From contig CATMIT010000003.1 in NCBI GenBank assembly GCA_950069165.1, positions 1-40,719 of the forward strand: a stretch of 40,719 nt of DNA, in the 5' to 3' direction. This DNA is from an uncultured Flavobacteriales bacterium (GTDB lineage Bacteria; Bacteroidota; Bacteroidia; Flavobacteriales; BACL11). Positions 19,368 through 24,681 of this stretch are shown in pieces (the first letter of the stretch is position 1; the number at the start of each line of letters is the position of its first letter). The notes beneath the pieces were generated by a model. That model was not told the origin of the DNA, ran no database searches, and saw only the letters and a program-made list of their open reading frames with translations. The position numbers and the translations under genes are program-made.

Positions 19368-21038
19368 ATGAGTGAAAATGAAAGTTTATTCGAATTTAAC
19401 CTGCCGAAAAACCGATCCTCTATTATAAAGGTGATTGGAGTTGGTGGTGGTGGCGGTAATGCTGTTAATTACATGCACAAAAATGGCATTGAGGGTGTGG
19501 ATTTTGTAGTCTGTAATACAGATGCACAAGCCTTGGATAAAAGTGATGTTCCTACTAAAATACAATTAGGAGCAGAACTTACAGAGGGACTTGGTGCGGG
19601 TTCAAACCCTGAAATGGGTCGAAAGGCAGCAGAAGAAAGTATTGACAAAGTAAAAGAACTTTTGGATTCCAATACAAAAATGTTATTTATTACAGCTGGA
19701 ATGGGAGGAGGAACCGGAACTGGTGCAGCCCCTGTAATTGCTGAGGCGGCAAAAGAAAAAGGCATCCTAACTGTTGGAGTGGTAACCATTCCTTTTTCAA
19801 CAGAAGGAGGGAATCGGCATAAATATGCAATGCAAGGACTAAAAGAGCTCAGAAAATATGTGGATACGCTTTTGGTTATTAATAACGACAAGCTAATTGA
19901 AATTTATGGCAACTTAACTTTTACTCAGGCATTCGCAAAAGCCAATGAAGTGCTCAATACTGCAACCAAAGGTATTGCAGAAGTAATATCACAACATTTG
20001 CTGGTAAATATTGACCTTAATGATGCCAGAAGAGTATTGGAAAATAGTGGAACAGCCGTAATGGGGCAAGCAACTGCCTCTGGAGAGAATAGAGCCATTG
20101 AGGCAGTAAAAGGGGCGCTTGATTCCCCACTTCTTAATGATAATAACATTAAAGGAGCCAAGCAAGTACTTTTGAAAATTGTAACTGGTGATGGAGAGGA
20201 AGAAATTAGAATGATGGAACTTTCGGATATCAAGCAAAAAATTCAGGAGGCAGCTGGTTGTGAGGTAAATATTATTGAAGGTATAGGGATTGATCCTGAA
20301 TTAAATGGGGAAGTATGTGTGACTGTAATTGCTACTGGCTTTAATGTAAAGGTGATAAAGGATGATGTTACCGTTACATTAGATGGAGAGGCAAATATTG
20401 ATGATGTATTAAGCCAAGAAAAAGAGCAAGAAGTAATATCTCCTACAAAAGAGGATAAAGTACAGCACACTATTTTTGATAATACAGAAGAATTAGATAC
20501 AGAAGTTGAACTAGAATTGGAAATAGAAGCACTAGAAAAAGAAGTAGAGATTAAAGAAGAGGAGCAAACAAAAGAGGTAGAAGAAGTAGAATTAAATACT
20601 GAAGAAGTAGAATTATCTACTGAAATAGAGCTGGATGTAGAACCTCAGCCAGTTGTTATTGATTTGGAGGATGAGGTGGAATTACCTGATGAATTAATAC
20701 CAACATTAAAACAAGAAGAGGAAGCTACTGAAATAGAATTGGATGTTGAAAGTGAAGCAATAAATGAAAGCGAATCCCTTCCGGTAAATTTAGAGATACT
20801 AACTAATAAATCAAGGGAAAGAGAAGATAGATTAAAGAATATTTCTATGAAGCTAAGGACACCTTCTGGCTTAACTGCATTGGAAGACGAGCCAGCATAC
20901 AAGCGCGACAATGTGGACTTGGAGGAAACGCCTCATTCCTCAGAATCGGAAGTTTCTAAATATACCTTAACGGAAGGGGAGGATAACAAAACGGAAATAA
21001 AACTAAATAATTCGTTTTTGCACGATAATGTAGATTAG
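19368..21038 (+). CDS. ftsZ: Cell division protein FtsZ with long acidic linker
   Basis: GVGGGGGNA, GMGGGTGTG tubulin signature, EPAYKR and NNSFLHDNVD C-terminus. Confidence 0.97.
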   Translation: MSENESLFEFNLPKNRSSIIKVIGVGGGGGNAVNYMHKNGIEGVDFVVCNTDAQALDKSDVPTKIQLGAELTEGLGAGSNPEMGRKAAEESIDKVKELLDSNTKMLFITAGMGGGTGTGAAPVIAEAAKEKGILTVGVVTIPFSTEGGNRHKYAMQGLKELRKYVDTLLVINNDKLIEIYGNLTFTQAFAKANEVLNTATKGIAEVISQHLLVNIDLNDARRVLENSGTAVMGQATASGENRAIEAVKGALDSPLLNDNNIKGAKQVLLKIVTGDGEEEIRMMELSDIKQKIQEAAGCEVNIIEGIGIDPELNGEVCVTVIATGFNVKVIKDDVTVTLDGEANIDDVLSQEKEQEVISPTKEDKVQHTIFDNTEELDTEVELELEIEALEKEVEIKEEEQTKEVEEVELNTEEVELSTEIELDVEPQPVVIDLEDEVELPDELIPTLKQEEEATEIELDVESEAINESESLPVNLEILTNKSREREDRLKNISMKLRTPSGLTALEDEPAYKRDNVDLEETPHSSESEVSKYTLTEGEDNKTEIKLNNSFLHDNVD

Positions 21039-21069
21039 TTTTGTTTAATAGTTTTTGATTGATTGTTAT

Positions 21070-21093
21070 AAGCCCTCTTTGGAGGGCTTTTTT
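21070..21093. terminator. Intrinsic terminator between convergent ftsZ and a hypothetical gene
   Basis: AAGCCCTC-TTTG-GAGGGCTT hairpin followed by a T-run. Confidence 0.8.
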
Positions 21094-21928
21094 ATTTCAC
21101 TATAATAATAATTGCCGATTTATCCAGGCTAAGTTGCATGACAACAGGATATTTTGTTTTGCTATCTACTAACTCAATTCGGCTGGTGTTAGGAGGAGAT
21201 GTCCCCAAACCAATGGCTTTTATCTCAATTGTATTTTCGCCTTTTTGTAATTTGTATTTTATTTTTTTACGTTTTCGTTTTGTTTCATATTCGTTAAGAA
21301 TAATCTTCCCATTGATGATTAGCTGAATTTTATCACCATCCTCCTCATTTGCATCCCAGAGGTAAAGTGTAAGTTTTTCACTCTCCCAATTAAGCACAAA
21401 ATCATCCCCGTCTTTTAGTTGTTTGGTCTGCAAAACAGTAGGCCTTTTTTCTTCAAACTTTTCTATCCTCTTTTTTATCTTCTTTATTTTTTTCTCCAAT
21501 TTCTCTTTTTCCATAAGCAGAATTTTACCACTTGCGCAAGTATCATTATTAGCAAACAAGCCCACAAACTCCCCCTCCAGGCGTTTGTTTCCCAATCGTC
21601 CTTTGATATACAAATTGGCGTGAATAAAACAGAAAGTACTTAAATCTGCTTCCGAGCTTGTGCTAAGTATTTGTGTTTCCTGCAATTGGAAAGATTTATC
21701 CTTTTTGAAATAAATGCCACTGAGATCACTTTTAGTCTCATCAGGGTTGCCTATATTGGTAAGGGAATAACCATTTACCACTCCATTTTCCTCATTAAAA
21801 TGAATACTGAAACTTATGGCAGAATTGTTAGGCAATAATAAAGTTCCTAAATAATTGAACTTTGTAGTTTGTTGTGCATTAGCAAAACCAATAAATAAAC
21901 TAAAAATAATGAAAATGGACTTTTGCAT
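21092..21928 (-). CDS. Exported hypothetical protein
   Basis: 278-aa ORF with a Sec signal peptide (…FANA/QQ), a charged linker and a C-terminal WD..EDGD…PPNT segment. Function not recognised. Confidence 0.75.
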   Translation of the reverse strand: MQKSIFIIFSLFIGFANAQQTTKFNYLGTLLLPNNSAISFSIHFNEENGVVNGYSLTNIGNPDETKSDLSGIYFKKDKSFQLQETQILSTSSEADLSTFCFIHANLYIKGRLGNKRLEGEFVGLFANNDTCASGKILLMEKEKLEKKIKKIKKRIEKFEEKRPTVLQTKQLKDGDDFVLNWESEKLTLYLWDANEEDGDKIQLIINGKIILNEYETKRKRKKIKYKLQKGENTIEIKAIGLGTSPPNTSRIELVDSKTKYPVVMQLSLDKSAIIIIVK

Positions 21929-21932
21929 GGTG

Positions 21933-21940
21933 CAAAACTA
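21933..21940 (-). promoter_or_regulatory. Bacteroidota -7 element for the hypothetical gene
   Basis: Minus strand TAGTTTTG, 4 nt before the ATG at 21928. Confidence 0.5.
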
Positions 21941-21993
21941 TTAAAGAAAAGGCAATTTACTATGCTAAGCATAATACTTTATTTTAAATGCTT

Positions 21994-22001
21994 TATTTTT
22001 G
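21994..22001 (+). promoter_or_regulatory. Bacteroidota -7 element for the small membrane-protein array
   Basis: TATTTTTG, 29 nt before the ATG at 22031. Confidence 0.5.
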
Positions 22002-22030
22002 TATCGTTAGTATTCAAAACATTTTGAATT

Positions 22031-22336
22031 ATGCGAAAACTAATACTGCTTTTAATTACACTTACTATAATAACAAATGTAAGTTATGCTTCTTTTCCTG
22101 TTACAAAACCTGAAGAGGTTCCAGATAATATGCCTTGGTATTTGCAAATCCTAGTTGGTTTTATTTTCGCAACACTATTTGCAATTGTTTACTATTTTTA
22201 TAAAAAATATAAAAGTTATAATTTAATTGAGGATGATAAAATAAGAGTAAGAAAGAAAACAAAATTTCAAATTACTATTGCTTTAATCGTACTTGGGTTT
22301 TTAATTCTTGGTATGTCAGCAATGTCTATGAATTAG
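22031..22336 (+). CDS. Small membrane protein, conserved-leader array copy 1
   Basis: MRKLILLLITLTIITNVSYASFPV leader, then two hydrophobic segments separated by a Lys/Arg-rich loop. Confidence 0.8.
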   Translation: MRKLILLLITLTIITNVSYASFPVTKPEEVPDNMPWYLQILVGFIFATLFAIVYYFYKKYKSYNLIEDDKIRVRKKTKFQITIALIVLGFLILGMSAMSMN

Positions 22337-22339
22337 AAA

Positions 22340-22660
22340 ATGAAAAAACTAATACTAATTTTAATAACGCTAACTACACTTACAAATGTGAGTTATGCTT
22401 CTTATCCTGTAACTGAAAGCCTACAAACTGAAATTATTGAAAACGCTACCATCCTCAATACGCCTGAGTCTTCTCTGTACATGATTTTGGGATTCTTTGT
22501 TGGGTTCTTTAGTTGGTTTCTCCTGCTTTTACCTCTTTTATTGTTGTTTGTTCCTAATAAAAGTTTCAGAATTGGGATTATTTCTGGCTTTTTGGTTATG
22601 CTTATTTTACTTGTATTCTTTTTAGGTGGTATTGGTTTTGGTTCTGTGATGGGGGGATAA
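22340..22660 (+). CDS. Small membrane protein, conserved-leader array copy 2
   Basis: MKKLILILITLTTLTNVSYASYPV leader, then two hydrophobic segments and a Gly-rich end. Confidence 0.8.
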   Translation: MKKLILILITLTTLTNVSYASYPVTESLQTEIIENATILNTPESSLYMILGFFVGFFSWFLLLLPLLLLFVPNKSFRIGIISGFLVMLILLVFFLGGIGFGSVMGG

Positions 22661-22671
22661 AAAAGAAAACA

Positions 22672-22989
22672 ATGAAAAAATTACTCTTACTTTTAATTAC
22701 ACTTACTACATTTGTAAATGTGAGTTATGCTTCATTCCCTGTTGTTGCTAGTTTTGAAAATAAATTATCTACAAACATTCCGATTGGAGAGATTTTAGGA
22801 CCTTTGTTTGGTCTTACTCTACTGGTTACGGCATTTTATATTTTTAATCGATTTTTTAGAAAAGGTAATACTGTAAGAAGATGGATGTGGTAAAATTTTT
22901 GGTTATTACTTGGTTCCCTTGTATTGTTATTGATCTTAATTTTCGGTATAGTTATTGCAATTTATGGCGGTGGTGTTAGTGGTGGGTAA
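22672..22989 (+). pseudogene. Small membrane protein, conserved-leader array copy 3, with internal TAA at 22891-22893
   Basis: MKKLLLLLITLTTFVNVSYASFPV leader. The same frame continues past the TAA as NFWLLLGSLVLLLILIFGIVIAIYGGGVSGG to a TAA ending at 22989, giving 105 codons, similar to its siblings. Confidence 0.65.
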
Positions 22990-22994
22990 TAACA

Positions 22995-23026
22995 AAAAAT
23001 CCCCACCAATAATGGCAGGGATTTTT
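22995..23026. terminator. Likely bidirectional terminator between the array and groEL
   Basis: AAAAATCCC…GGGATTTTT inverted repeat with an imperfect inner stem and A/T runs on both sides. Confidence 0.65.
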
Positions 23027-23049
23027 AATAAACATCTAACGCAATGGGT

Positions 23050-24681
23050 TTACATCATTCCTGGCATACCGCCACCACCCATAGGAGGCATAGCTGGTTC
23101 GTTTTCAGGAATATCAGCAATTACGCATTCAGTTGTAAGCAACATTCCCGCCACTGATGCCGCATGCTCTAAAGCAATACGAACTACTTTTACTGGGTCA
23201 ATAACCCCTGCTTTGTAGAGGTTTTCGTATTTTTCTGTTTTGGCATTAAAACCAAAATCTTCTTTTCCCTCTTTTATTTTAGCAACCACTACCGAGCTTT
23301 CCACACCAGCATTTTCTACTATTTGTCTTAGTGGCTCTTCCACTGCTCTTTCAATAATGCTGATACCTGTTTTCTCATCTTCATTTTCAGCTTTTACTTT
23401 AGAAAGCGAATCAGCAGCCCTTACAATAGCCACTCCACCACCTGGAACAATTCCTTCTTCCACAGCAGCTCTGGTTGCAGCTAATGCATCATCTACTCTG
23501 TCTTTCTTTTCTTTCATTTCAATTTCAGATGCAGCCCCAATGTACAACACCGCAACTCCACCAGCTAATTTAGCCAATCTTTCCTGTAGTTTTTCTCTAT
23601 CATAGTCAGAAGTGGTGCTTTCAATTTGTGCTTTGATTTGGTTTACTCTTGCTTTAATATCCGATTTGTTTCCTGCTCCATTTATAATGGTTGTATTGTC
23701 CTTATCAATTATAATTTTTTCAGCTCCTCCCAACATTTCAATAGTAGTTGCATCCAATTTAAAACCTCTTTCTTCCGACACTACAGTTCCTGATGTAAGA
23801 ATTGCGATATCTTCCAACATGGCTTTTCTTCTATCTCCAAACCCTGGCGCTTTAACGGCTGCTACTTTTAGGGACCCTCTTAGTTTGTTTACTACCAAAG
23901 TAGATAATGCTTCTCCATCCACATCTTCTGCAATAATTAAAAGTGGTCTTCCATCTTGTGCGGTTTGTTCCAATATTGGCAATAAGTCCTTCATTGCCGA
24001 TATCTTTTTGTCATAAATAAGGATATAAGGATTTTCCAGTTCGGTTTCCATTTTGTCGGCATCCGTAATAAAATAAGGAGAAAGGTAACCTCTGTCAAAC
24101 TGCATTCCTTCCACTACTTCCACAGTGGTTTCCGTTCCTTTTGCTTCCTCCACAGTAATAACCCCCTCTGTTTTTACTTTTTTCATTGCTTCCGCAATAA
24201 GTTCACCAATGATGTTGTCATTATTGGCAGAAATTGCCGCTACTTGCTCAATCTTCTCATAGCTATTTCCCACTTCTTTTGATTGTTTTTTAAGGTCAGC
24301 AACAATAGCCGCTACTGCTTTGTCAATTCCTCTTTTTAAATCCATTGGGTTCGCGCCAGCAGCTACATTTTTAAGTCCTGAACTAATTATTGCTTGTCCT
24401 AAAAGCGTTGCGGTAGTAGTACCATCTCCTGCCAAATCTGCAGTTTTTGATGCTACTTCTTTTAGCATTTGTGCACCCATGTTTTCGATAGGGTCTGCCA
24501 GTTCAATTTCTTTTGCTACAGTTACACCATCTTTTGTAATGGATGGTCCTCCAAATTTTTTGTCAATAATTACATTTCTTCCTTTTGGACCTAATGTAAC
24601 TTTTACTGCATTTGCAAGGGCATCTGCCCCTCTTTTAAGAGCATCTCTTGCCTGTGTGTCAAATGTGATTTCTTTTGCCAT
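23050..24681 (-). CDS. groEL: Chaperonin GroEL
   Basis: [32 protein letters not shown] and a GGM tail. Confidence 0.99.

What the first reader, a model, noticed from the sequence alone, without database searches (positions are those of the whole stretch)
22031..22989. Tandem array of small two-TM proteins with a conserved leader and unrelated bodies (candidate polymorphic cassette system)
Seen: three head-to-tail genes separated by only 3 and 11 nt. They start MRKLILLLITLTIITNVSYASFPV, MKKLILILITLTTLTNVSYASYPV and MKKLLLLLITLTTFVNVSYASFPV (19/24 identical in each pairwise comparison). The DNA core AAATGTRAGTTATGCTTCWTWYCCTGT is shared (72-nt leader blocks at 22031, 22340, 22672). Similarity stops right after PV, yet all three keep the same plan: short polar tail, TM, basic loop, TM, about 101-106 aa. 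Established: Sec signal peptides normally diverge faster than mature domains, so this pattern is inverted. A constant leader with a variable payload is the logic of RiPP precursors and of polymorphic toxin/immunity loci. Inference: the leader is cleaved at SYA/S(F/Y)PV and is either a dedicated recognition tag or a homology anchor that lets bodies be swapped, added or lost by recombination. The products could be a variable repertoire of inner-membrane immunity, phage-exclusion or envelope-modulating proteins. I do not recognise a named family for this architecture.
Basis: partly seen in the sequence, partly recalled or inferred. Interest (0 to 1): 0.85.

Follow-up and report, generated by a model that had tools for sequence, protein, structure and literature searches.

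The report
Small membrane proteins sharing one leader
Three neighbouring genes for small membrane proteins carry a nearly identical export signal on unrelated bodies, and in related marine bacteria this signal is swapped between genes by recombination; what the proteins do is still unknown.

Summary
Three head-to-tail genes (22031, 22340, 22672) share a 72-nt, 24-residue leader and have bodies with no detectable homology (hhalign 0.1-12.5%). In this window the third gene is cut by an in-frame TAA (22891-22893). Contigs from four public metagenome runs all read G there (GAA, Glu), so the natural allele is intact.

The leader has the form of a Sec signal peptide ending N-V-S-Y-A, followed by an almost invariant S-F-P-[VI]. 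It defines a lineage-restricted superfamily: 53 of 68 genomes of the same family, and 241 cluster representatives among 1.84 billion proteins. No Pfam or NCBIfam model covers it.

The ftsZ-groEL gap is a recurrent array site holding 1-5 such genes in nine genomes, with differing content. Leader exchange is shown directly. Close orthologues have bodies 94-95% identical but leaders only 78-79% identical. One leader variant sits on two different body types.

The [YF]ASFPV motif also heads Flavobacterium TM2-domain proteins (119 of 120). It also occurs on outer-membrane beta-barrel fusions, which argues for a cleaved signal.

Function is unknown. I found no support for RiPP, toxin-immunity or phage-defence readings. 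This is a new variant of a known kind (shared-leader gene families).

The parts
21961..21977 (+). Palindromic motif TATGC-N3-GCATA-ATAC, 54 nt upstream of the first array gene; candidate promoter or operator element of the array
   Evidence: It occurs once in the window, against 0.05 expected. The same pattern lies upstream of leader genes or their operons in 9 other distinct loci. Its function was not tested.
22031..22336 (+). Gene P1, 101 aa: leader, short polar tail, hydrophobic stretch (about residues 36-57), basic loop (9 Lys/Arg in residues 58-78), second hydrophobic stretch (about 79-98)
   Evidence: ORF. Nine orthologue clusters at 70-95% identity. No Pfam or NCBIfam family over cut-off. 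The segment limits come from reading the translation, not from a predictor.
22031..22102 (+). Leader block 1 (24 codons): signal-peptide-like 20 residues ending N-V-S-Y-A, then S-F-P-V
   Evidence: Leader profile score 67.5 bits.
22340..22660 (+). Gene P2, 106 aa: leader (S-Y-P-V variant), acidic tail with Q-T-E-I-I-E, two long helices
   Evidence: ORF. About 50 full-length orthologue clusters. AlphaFold2 on 34 sequences gave mean pLDDT 73.7, helices 2-20, 43-57, 61-70 and 74-105, and low-confidence stretches at 23-27 and 33-40.
22340..22411 (+). Leader block 2
   Evidence: Score 71.4 bits.
22672..22893 (+). Gene P3 as it stands in the window: a 73-codon ORF (leader, tail, first hydrophobic stretch, basic loop) ended by TAA
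22672..22743 (+). Leader block 3
   Evidence: Score 67.0 bits.
22891..22893 (+). In-frame TAA. Natural populations read GAA (Glu) here.
   Evidence: T>G at 22891 at 100% of depth in 4 of 4 runs. The orthologue P0178 has Glu at this position and continues to 102 aa.
22894..22989 (+). Remainder of the P3 frame (31 codons plus stop): second hydrophobic stretch and a Gly-rich end
   Evidence: Read-through with X at the stop. It aligns with the second helix and Gly-rich end of P0178.
22995..23026 (.). Terminator-like hairpin (14 pairs) between the array and convergent groEL, with A/T runs on both sides
   Evidence: 1 found against 0.5 expected in shuffles. It lies after 22989, which fits the full-length P3 end.
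19368..21038 (+). ftsZ, left border of the variable interval
   Evidence: Pfam Tubulin 2.1e-50 and FtsZ_C 2.1e-20.
23050..24681 (-). groEL, right border of the variable interval
   Evidence: Pfam Cpn60_TCP1 2.4e-78.

Best explanation
The three genes belong to a lineage-restricted superfamily of small exported membrane proteins. The family is defined by a shared N-terminal module rather than by its bodies. The module is a Sec/signal-peptidase-I type signal (Lys-Lys start, Leu/Ile/Thr-rich core, N-V-S-Y-A) followed by S-F-P-[VI].

Inferred working:
1. The signal is cut after Ala20.
2. This leaves S-F-P-V and a short polar or acidic tail in the periplasm.
3. The body forms an N-out helical hairpin with a basic cytoplasmic loop.

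Shown evolutionary mechanism:
- The module also sits on unrelated anchors: several kinds of helical hairpin, TM2 domains and outer-membrane beta-barrels.
- It is exchanged between genes by recombination, with breakpoints inside or at the end of the leader.
- Arrays in the ftsZ-groEL gap gain, lose and reorder genes.

Two layers explain the conservation:
- An older, probably functional [YF]-A-[SA]-F-P-[VI] junction, kept even where the hydrophobic core differs. I take it to be a tag for processing, stability or sorting of the new N-terminus, which departs from the Bacteroidetes rule of Gln at +1.
- Within this bacterial family, homogenisation of the whole 72-nt leader by exchange.

The cellular role of the bodies is unknown. 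Gene 3 is a nonsense allele, or an assembly error, of an otherwise intact gene.
For: Module and spread:
- Logo over 263 unique proteins: S 260, F 261, P 261, V/I 257, Y 252, A 256, N 247.
- 53 of 68 genomes of the same family match the leader profile, up to 12 matches per genome.
- 38 of 301 genomes of the order match. These are concentrated in four families, with 0/49, 0/49, 0/49 and 0/48 in others.
- 241 representatives among 1.84 billion proteins.

Unrelated bodies:
- hhalign 0.1-12.5% among the window's three body families.
- TM2 domain on distant members, 1.4e-15 and 2.3e-11.
- OMP_b-brl on P0143, 1.9e-10.
- The P0122 body ends like the neighbouring barrel-like genes.

Cleavage (indirect):
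- A barrel fusion needs release from the inner membrane.
- Neighbouring barrel-like genes carry the same signal ending N-V-S-Y-A followed by Gln. Gln at +1 is the usual Bacteroidetes SPI site (PMC5837995, passages read).
- The AlphaFold2 model of P2 has helix 2-20, no regular structure over 21-30, a low-confidence helix 31-38, then two long helices.

Exchange:
- Three orthologous pairs between G078 and G076 have bodies 93.8-94.5% identical in DNA but leaders only 77.8-79.2%.
- Within one pair, leader nt 1-51 match at 36/51, nt 52-72 at 20/21, and the body at 136/143, while the upstream neighbours differ.
- A second pair with the same flanks: upstream 68/74, leader nt 1-51 at 38/51.
- A G078 gene shares 50/51 leader nt with a G072 gene of another body type, against 40/51 and 38/51 with its own orthologues. 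The sequences diverge right after S-F-P.
- In 34 of 50 orthologue pairs, a paralogue's leader in the same locus is closer than the orthologue's leader.

Hot spot:
- 9 genomes of 3 genera hold 1-5 leader genes between ftsZ and groEL, with differing content.

Older motif:
- 119 of 120 best Flavobacterium TM2 homologues carry the motif, 113 of them as Y-A-S-F-P-V.
- At least 8 of 16 TM2 genes in the same family have a leader hit upstream.

Nonsense allele.
Against: - Cleavage and topology are not measured.
- The idea that S-F-P-V is a functional tag rests on conservation alone. No partner, enzyme or phenotype is known.
- Between orthologues the leader is no better conserved than the body, so part of its uniformity may be a by-product of exchange.
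- Leader exchange was shown in relatives (G072, G076, G078), not in this genome. Here, contigs from two runs bridge an intact P1-P2-P3 array.
- The loci studied were chosen because they had leader hits, and the genomes are related, so the counts are not independent.
- The direction of descent (TM2 protein as source of the module) is inferred.
- Exact shared runs between leaders in one locus are short (median 18 nt, maximum 32). That is marginal for homologous recombination.
Confidence: 0.6

Rival explanations
1. This is an ordinary paralogue family with a plain Sec signal. The leader has no role beyond export, and its uniformity is only a by-product of tandem duplication and gene conversion between neighbouring copies.
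For: - Leader exchange is frequent.
- Leader and body evolve at like rates in orthologues.
- In more distant families the hydrophobic core is not conserved between paralogues.
- At identical residues, leaders on unrelated bodies share the same codon in 0.67-0.71 of cases. groEL, ftsZ and ftsA between the same genomes share it in 0.58-0.60. This fits homogenisation.
Against: - The six residues across the presumed cut site are kept in families where the rest of the signal differs.
- They are also kept in single-copy Flavobacterium TM2 proteins, where no array exists (119 of 120).
- Positions +1 to +4 are normally free, and Bacteroidetes favour Gln at +1 (PMC5837995).
- Bodies as different as beta-barrels and TM2 domains cannot have arisen by divergence of one hairpin.
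Confidence: 0.22
2. This is a variable repertoire of immunity, phage-exclusion or envelope-modulating proteins. Recombination at the leader renews the set under selection from phages or bacteriocins.
For: - Arrays differ in content between relatives whose shared genes are about 94-95% identical.
- Nonsense or broken copies occur: the window's P3 and a further leader place with an in-frame TAA in G016.
- The genes are dispensable. Genomes at 99%, 90% and 89% completeness have no match.
Against: - No toxin, secretion or defence genes lie in or beside the arrays. The flanks are ftsA-ftsZ and groEL-groES.
- No PADLOC hit for P1-P3, and only a sub-threshold PHROG hit (E 0.0089) for P2.
- Each body type is conserved across genomes rather than hypervariable.
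- The strain-level array is intact in two metagenomes.
Confidence: 0.12
3. The conserved block acts at the nucleic-acid level, as a shared 5' mRNA or DNA element for co-regulation or site-specific recombination. The peptide conservation would then be secondary.
For: - Codon choice is strongly position-specific. Leu4 and Leu11 use CTA in 39 of 49 and 39 of 51 cases, against 10% genome usage. Ser21 uses TCT in 52 of 58, and Ala20 uses GCT in 46 of 57.
- The same-codon fraction exceeds that of housekeeping orthologues.
Against: - Conservation starts at the ATG and ends at codon 24, with background identity upstream.
- Several positions sit at the genome's own codon frequencies (Ile9, Pro23, Phe22).
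- Distant members keep the peptide motif with different DNA.
- No Rfam match in the window.
- Recent exchange explains the codon sharing.
Confidence: 0.05
4. These are RiPP or bacteriocin precursors. The leader would be a recognition tag for a maturation and export machine, and the bodies would be released peptides.
For: Only the formal pattern of a constant leader with variable cores in tandem.
Against: - No modifying enzyme, peptidase-ABC exporter or immunity gene lies in any of the intervals inspected.
- By reading, the leader has the form of a Sec signal and has no double-glycine site.
- The bodies are 2-4-helix membrane segments with basic loops, or TM2 or beta-barrel domains.
Confidence: 0.02

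Closest known systems
Flavobacterium TM2 domain-containing membrane proteins (Pfam PF05154; source names 'TM2 domain-containing protein' / 'YozV')
   Same: Same N-terminal plan: a signal peptide ending in [YF]-A, then S-F-P-V, a polar linker and a small helical membrane domain. 119 of 120 best hits carry the motif. TM2 genes in the window's own family also carry the leader.
   Different: P1-P3 have no TM2 domain, and this genome has none at 92.5% completeness. The TM2 genes seen were not found as members of leader-gene arrays. Their hydrophobic core differs from the window's leader.
Borrelia burgdorferi Erp/Elp lipoproteins ('OspE/F-like leader peptide' families)
   Same: Multi-copy gene families grouped by a shared leader peptide on differing mature parts (PMC12242104, passages read; it cites Akins et al. 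1999). That recombination shaped them is my recollection of the 1999 paper, which is not held.
   Different: Those are lipoproteins with a lipobox Cys, carried on cp32 prophage plasmids, and host-interaction surface proteins. Here there is no Cys. The genes are chromosomal arrays between ftsZ and groEL in free-living marine bacteria, and the products are small integral membrane proteins.
Specialised signal-peptide motifs (YSIRK-G/S, KxYKxGKxW, ESPR of autotransporters) - recalled, not tested
   Same: A conserved motif inside or next to a Sec signal, shared by proteins with different mature parts and thought to steer the route or site of export.
   Different: Those motifs lie in the n- or h-region of Gram-positive or autotransporter signals. 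Here the best-kept part spans the presumed cut site and the first four mature residues. No routing function is known.
Bacteroidetes Q-rule substrates of signal peptidase I
   Same: Same phylum and same presumed pathway (Sec plus SPI). Barrel-like genes inside related arrays use the same signal and obey the rule, with Gln after N-V-S-Y-A (PMC5837995 passages; PMC10653852 abstract in the search listing).
   Different: The family has Ser, not Gln, at +1 (260 of 263). It therefore cannot be pyroglutamylated. It keeps F-P-[VI] at +2 to +4 instead.

Membership tests
Sec / signal peptidase I signal peptide | Basic n-region, hydrophobic h-region of about 7-15 residues, and small uncharged residues at -3 and -1 | tested here: met
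   Read from the translations and the logo: Lys/Arg at positions 2-3, an 11-12-residue Leu/Ile/Thr/Phe core, Ser at -3 and Ala at -1. AlphaFold2 places helix 2-20. No dedicated predictor was run.
Sec / signal peptidase I signal peptide | Actual cleavage by SPI | not testable with these tools
   Only indirect support: beta-barrel fusions, and neighbouring genes with the same signal followed by Gln.
Pfam TM2 domain (PF05154) | Match to the TM2 profile over the curated cut-off | tested here: not met
   No TM2 hit for P1, P2 or P3, even at E up to 10, and none in the whole genome. Distant leader-bearing proteins do match.
RiPP / class II bacteriocin precursor | Leader with a processing site for a dedicated peptidase (such as double glycine), and neighbouring maturation or export genes | tested here: not met
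   By reading there is no Gly-Gly site in the leader. The interval holds only the array, a 278-aa protein of no family, ftsZ and groEL. The same holds in related loci.
Polymorphic toxin / immunity cassette array | An adjacent toxin gene with a variable C-terminal domain, followed by cognate and orphan immunity genes | tested here: not met
   No such gene lies in the interval or in the 20 related loci inspected. No PADLOC hit for P1-P3.
Shared-leader multigene family shaped by recombination (Borrelia Erp/Elp type) | Near-identical leader peptides on unrelated mature parts, with evidence of exchange | tested here: met
   unrelated bodies; mosaics.
Shared-leader multigene family shaped by recombination (Borrelia Erp/Elp type) | Lipoprotein lipobox with Cys at +1, and carriage on a plasmid or prophage | tested here: not met
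   Ser at +1 in 260 of 263. The locus is chromosomal, between ftsZ and groEL.
Bacteroidetes Q-rule SPI substrates | Gln immediately after the cut site | tested here: not met
   Ser at +1. The rule is as described in PMC5837995 (passages read).

The most novel reading that the evidence does not exclude
[YF]-A-S-F-P-[VI] is a previously undescribed sorting or maturation signal of Flavobacteriales. A dedicated factor would recognise the new N-terminus of small periplasm-facing membrane proteins, as an alternative to the Gln/pyroglutamate route. In small-genome marine lineages, the 72-nt block that encodes it would double as a recombination handle. That would turn the ftsZ-groEL gap into a cassette array that reshuffles a repertoire of envelope proteins under selection from phages or competitors.
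Probability: 0.2. Interest if true: 0.8.

Novelty: new variant of a known kind. Interest (0 to 1): 0.6.

Why it matters
- It defines a protein superfamily by its export leader rather than by its fold. No Pfam or NCBIfam model covers it, so dozens of 'hypothetical' small membrane proteins of abundant marine Flavobacteriales can now be recognised and grouped.
- It gives a clean bacterial case of an N-terminal module moved between unrelated genes by recombination inside the coding leader, at a fixed hot spot between two essential operons.
- The invariant S-F-P-V at the presumed new N-terminus is a sharp exception to the Bacteroidetes Gln+1 rule. It is shared with TM2-domain proteins, whose function is unknown in any organism. 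A cultivable Flavobacterium could therefore be used to test what this N-terminus does.

Tried and rejected
**TonB-box idea.** The linker after S-F-P-V often holds E-[IV]-[IV] (15 of 72 body representatives against 5.3 +/- 2.1 in shuffles, 13 of them at position 7). This resembles the L-x-E-V-x-V stretch ahead of the plug domains of this genome's TonB-dependent receptors. I sent the TonB C-terminal domain with the P2 tail to complex prediction. The result was 'no answer', score 0.01. It is no evidence either way, and I dropped the idea from the main reading.

**Phage link.** A scan of viral contigs gave 70 pattern matches, none confirmed by tblastn. By my rough estimate, 70 is about what chance gives for an 8-residue pattern. 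PHROGs and PADLOC gave nothing for P1-P3 beyond one sub-threshold PHROG hit for P2 (E 0.0089).

**ESM Atlas for P1.** Best scores were 0.85, 0.85 and 0.79, all to unnamed clusters. These are leads only.

**Rfam.** No match in the window.

**Within-genome homogenisation.** Leaders in the same locus are only slightly more alike in codons than leaders in different loci (0.711 against 0.674). A simple model of gene conversion within one array is therefore not enough.

**Deletion variants in metagenomes.** Two joints (22365 to 23023 in X7, 22410 to 22850 in X11) start in or at the end of the P2 leader. Each rests on one contig with 42-47 letters on the short side, at 88% likeness. They may come from other organisms and are not used as evidence. 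Loose ends around 22339-22415 in all four runs are most simply other genes that carry a like leader.

**Single-linkage clustering of bodies.** 247 bodies gave 42 components, one of 159. This overstates relatedness, because shared linkers and a Q-Y-H/Cys-x-Cys-x-x-Cys module chain different anchors together. A greedy clustering gave 72 representatives.

**'DUF4190-like' label.** This was my recalled label for one body type. Pfam did not confirm it, so I dropped it.

**Not done.** I did not run fold search on the P2 model, because a two-helix hairpin gives meaningless matches.

**Literature.**
- The search 'conserved signal peptide' + hypervariable + Bacteroidetes found 0 papers.
- 'TM2 domain' + bacteria + 'signal peptide' listed 10 of 21 papers. 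By title and abstract start, none is about this motif.
- I know of no description of the motif. These two searches are the only basis for that statement.
- Supplements were closed and were not consulted.
Full report
**What is in the window**

- The ORF listing gives three same-strand ORFs: 22031-22336 (101 aa), 22340-22660 (106 aa) and 22672-22893 (73 aa). They are 3 and 11 nt apart.
- Their first 24 residues differ at 5 positions in every pair. The repeat finder reports one family of three 74-nt copies, 82% and 77% identical to the first.
- The third ORF stops at an in-frame TAA (22891-22893). The same frame then runs on for 31 codons to 22989, encoding a second hydrophobic stretch and a Gly-rich end.
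- A terminator-like hairpin follows at 22995-23026.
- The flanks are ftsA and ftsZ on the left, and groEL and groES, convergent, on the right (Pfam).
- A 278-aa exported protein of no family lies between ftsZ and the array on the other strand.
- The genome is a 1.46-Mb, 34% G+C assembly of 121 contigs, 92.5% complete. The leader occurs nowhere else in it.

**The stop in gene 3**

- Contigs of four public marine metagenome runs from four studies were laid on 20900-23200. All read G at 22891, at 100% of the depth there.
- The orthologue P0178 (102 aa) has Glu at that position and continues through the second helix.
- The natural gene is therefore intact. The window carries either a private nonsense allele or an assembly error.
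- Contigs of two runs bridge the three genes with 5-7 differences. At strain level the array is stable in those samples.

**No named family**

- Pfam and NCBIfam give nothing over cut-off for the three proteins.
- PADLOC gives nothing. PHROGs gives only one sub-threshold hit (E 0.0089) for P2.
- P2 has about 50 full-length orthologue clusters at 57-100% identity in marine metagenomes. All are unnamed or 'hypothetical'.
- P1 has nine orthologue clusters at 70-95% identity.
- The bodies are therefore ordinary conserved proteins, not hypervariable ones.
- Profile-profile comparison of the three body families gives probabilities of 0.1%, 4.1% and 12.5%. They are not detectably related.
- AlphaFold2 on a 34-sequence P2 alignment gave mean pLDDT 73.7. 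It shows helix 2-20, no regular structure over 21-30, a low-confidence helix 31-38 (pLDDT under 50 at 23-27 and 33-40), and then helices 43-57, 61-70 and 74-105.

**The leader defines a superfamily**

- A 34-position profile of 19 leaders matches 53 of 68 genomes of the same family. That is 19 of 21 among genomes at least 90% complete. There are up to 12 matches per genome, often in tandem.
- In the order, 38 of 301 genomes match. They are concentrated in four families (27/36, 7/16, 2/10, 1/2), with none in 49, 49, 49 and 48 genomes of four other families.
- A looser profile found only weak matches in 9 of 400 other genomes across the phylum.
- Against 1.84 billion cluster representatives the profile finds 241 proteins at E <= 0.001 and 84 at E <= 1e-10. 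In the 150 listed, the match nearly always starts at residue 1. Their lengths run from 43 to 210 residues, plus one of 352.
- Over 263 unique members the junction is nearly invariant: N 247, S 257, Y 252, A 256, then S 260, F 261, P 261, V/I 257.

**What the leader is**

- By reading, it has the three parts of a Sec signal: a basic start, a hydrophobic core, and Ser at -3 with Ala at -1.
- Two results argue that it is really cut.
  - Some members join the leader and S-F-P-V to an outer-membrane beta-barrel (P0143, Pfam OMP_b-brl 1.9e-10; P0122). A barrel must leave the inner membrane.
  - Barrel-like genes inside related arrays carry the same signal up to N-V-S-Y-A, followed by Gln. Gln after the cut is the usual Bacteroidetes signal-peptidase-I site (PMC5837995, passages read; PMC10653852, abstract in the listing).
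- The family itself breaks that rule with Ser at +1.
- Cleavage was not measured, and no predictor was available.

**An older layer**

- In more distant families the hydrophobic core varies, but [YF]-A-[SA]-F-P-[VI] stays. There the bodies include TM2 domains (PF05154, 1.4e-15 and 2.3e-11).
- A 4.7-Mb genome of another family in the order has the same plan.
- Its homologues are named by their sources as Flavobacterium TM2 domain-containing proteins. They carry the motif in 119 of the 120 best hits, 113 of them as Y-A-S-F-P-V.
- In the window's own family, 14 of 68 genomes have TM2 genes. At least 8 of the 16 genes have a leader hit just upstream. This genome has none.
- The junction motif is therefore older and wider than the arrays. 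TM2 proteins are its most widespread carriers. That they are the source of the module is an inference.

**A hot spot**

- I fetched 20 loci, chosen because they held leader hits. In nine genomes of three genera, 1-5 leader genes lie between ftsA-ftsZ and groEL-groES.
- In five further loci only one of the two borders is seen.
- A fatty-acid desaturase (Pfam 4.6e-30) and barrel-like genes are sometimes interleaved.
- Content and order differ within a genus.
- Secondary sites also exist.

**Exchange at the leader**

- Between G078 and G076, three orthologous pairs have bodies 93.8-94.5% identical in DNA but leaders only 77.8-79.2%.
- In one pair the upstream neighbours differ. Leader nt 1-51 match at 36/51, nt 52-72 at 20/21, and the next 143 nt at 136/143. 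The breakpoint lies inside the leader.
- In a pair with the same flanks, the upstream spacer matches at 68/74 but leader nt 1-51 at 38/51. This is a patch more diverged than neutral sequence beside it.
- One G078 gene shares 50/51 leader nt with a G072 gene of a different body type. It shares 40/51 and 38/51 with its own orthologues, and the two sequences part right after S-F-P.
- In 34 of 50 orthologue pairs, a paralogue's leader in the same locus is closer than the orthologue's.
- Whole-gene moves between the two arrays have alignment ends at the leaders. With spacers this short, that alone proves little.
- Identity between leaders in one locus starts at the ATG and ends at about nt 72. Exact runs have a median of 18 nt and a maximum of 32.

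**Codons**

- Codon choice in the leader is position-specific: CTA for Leu4 in 39 of 49 and for Leu11 in 39 of 51, against 10% genome use; TCT for Ser21 in 52 of 58.
- Leaders on unrelated bodies share the same codon at 0.67-0.71 of identical residues. The figure is 0.58-0.60 for groEL, ftsZ and ftsA between the same genomes.
- Between orthologues the leader is not better kept than the body.
- Together with the mosaics, this fits ongoing exchange better than a nucleic-acid function. Conservation is confined to the codons, and distant members keep the peptide with different DNA.
- These sequences are related, so the figures are descriptive and are not tests.

**Function**

- Nothing here shows what the proteins do.
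- By reading, P1 and P3 have basic loops between two hydrophobic stretches (9 and 5 Lys/Arg). This fits an N-out hairpin.
- The linker after S-F-P-V falls into a few recurring types that are shared by different anchors. One type is enriched for E-[IV]-[IV] at position 7.
- hhalign links the P2 family to another body type only over the first 41 residues (95.8%).
- A resemblance to TonB boxes was tested by complex prediction and gave no verdict (see Tried and rejected).
- My best reading is that the junction motif is a tag for processing, stability or sorting of a non-Gln N-terminus, and that the bodies are small envelope proteins of unknown role. This is the weakest part of the account.

**Comparison and verdict**

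- The nearest known kind is the shared-leader multigene family, as in the Borrelia 'OspE/F-like leader peptide' proteins (PMC12242104, passages read; Akins 1999 not held). Specialised signal-peptide motifs such as YSIRK are a second comparison, from recall.
- This case differs in four ways. The products are non-lipoprotein small membrane proteins. The locus is chromosomal, between two essential operons, in free-living marine Flavobacteriales. The best-kept part spans the cut site. The motif is shared with TM2-domain proteins.
- I rate it a new variant of a known kind, with interest 0.6.

Noticed in passing
window 21961-21977; also L007:167-183, L009:1619-1635, L013:8017-8033, L015:3280-3296, L016:4170-4186, L019:5652-5668, L021:6074-6090, L028:1203-1219, L029:6175-6191: A palindromic motif (TATGC-N3-GCATA followed by ATAC) lies about 30-55 nt upstream of the first gene of leader-gene arrays or their operons in ten distinct loci, including sites away from ftsZ-groEL. 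A near copy in this genome (contig C97, near 484-496) precedes another exported protein. It may be a shared operator or promoter element.
   Followed up: partly
L006:1888-2388, L006:2393-2752, L013, L015, L016, L024 (many genes): Many family members carry an extra periplasmic module after the leader. It has a conserved Q-Y-H ... Cys-x-Cys-x-x-Cys-Arg signature and no Pfam match. The module is combined with at least four different membrane anchors, including a beta-barrel-like tail (P0122).
   Followed up: partly
proteins P0012 and P0017 in alignment A6: These P2 homologues match the window's P2 almost exactly up to the middle of the first helix. After that they follow the other P2 subtype to the end. 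This looks like recombination inside the body as well as at the leader.
   Followed up: no
G016:C40:12733-12822; G082:C35:10660-10758: Another leader match has an in-frame TAA, and a TM2 match has an in-frame TGA. Broken copies may be common in this family.
   Followed up: no
L015:5066-6145, L017:5830-6909, L019:4525-5604, L026:6676-7746 and adjacent 147-186-aa genes: A fatty-acid desaturase (Pfam 4.6e-30, tested on the L019 copy) and barrel-like exported proteins of no family sit inside the ftsZ-groEL arrays of four genomes. Most of the barrel-like genes use the same signal peptide, with Gln after the presumed cut. The interval may be a wider envelope-related island.
   Followed up: partly
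window 21092-21928 (-): A 278-aa protein with a signal ending A-N-A followed by Gln-Gln. It has no Pfam family and was unique among the 21 intervals compared. It is an insertion in this genome's ftsZ-groEL gap.
   Followed up: partly
window 19368-21038 (+): FtsZ is 556 aa. Beyond the Pfam domains (which end near residue 325) it has a tail of about 230 residues that is very rich in Glu and holds repeated E-L-D-V-E-like units.
   Followed up: no
window 22013, 22772, 22804, 22891: At these four places all four metagenome runs agree with each other and differ from the window. The assembled strain is therefore slightly off the common population sequence.
   Followed up: no
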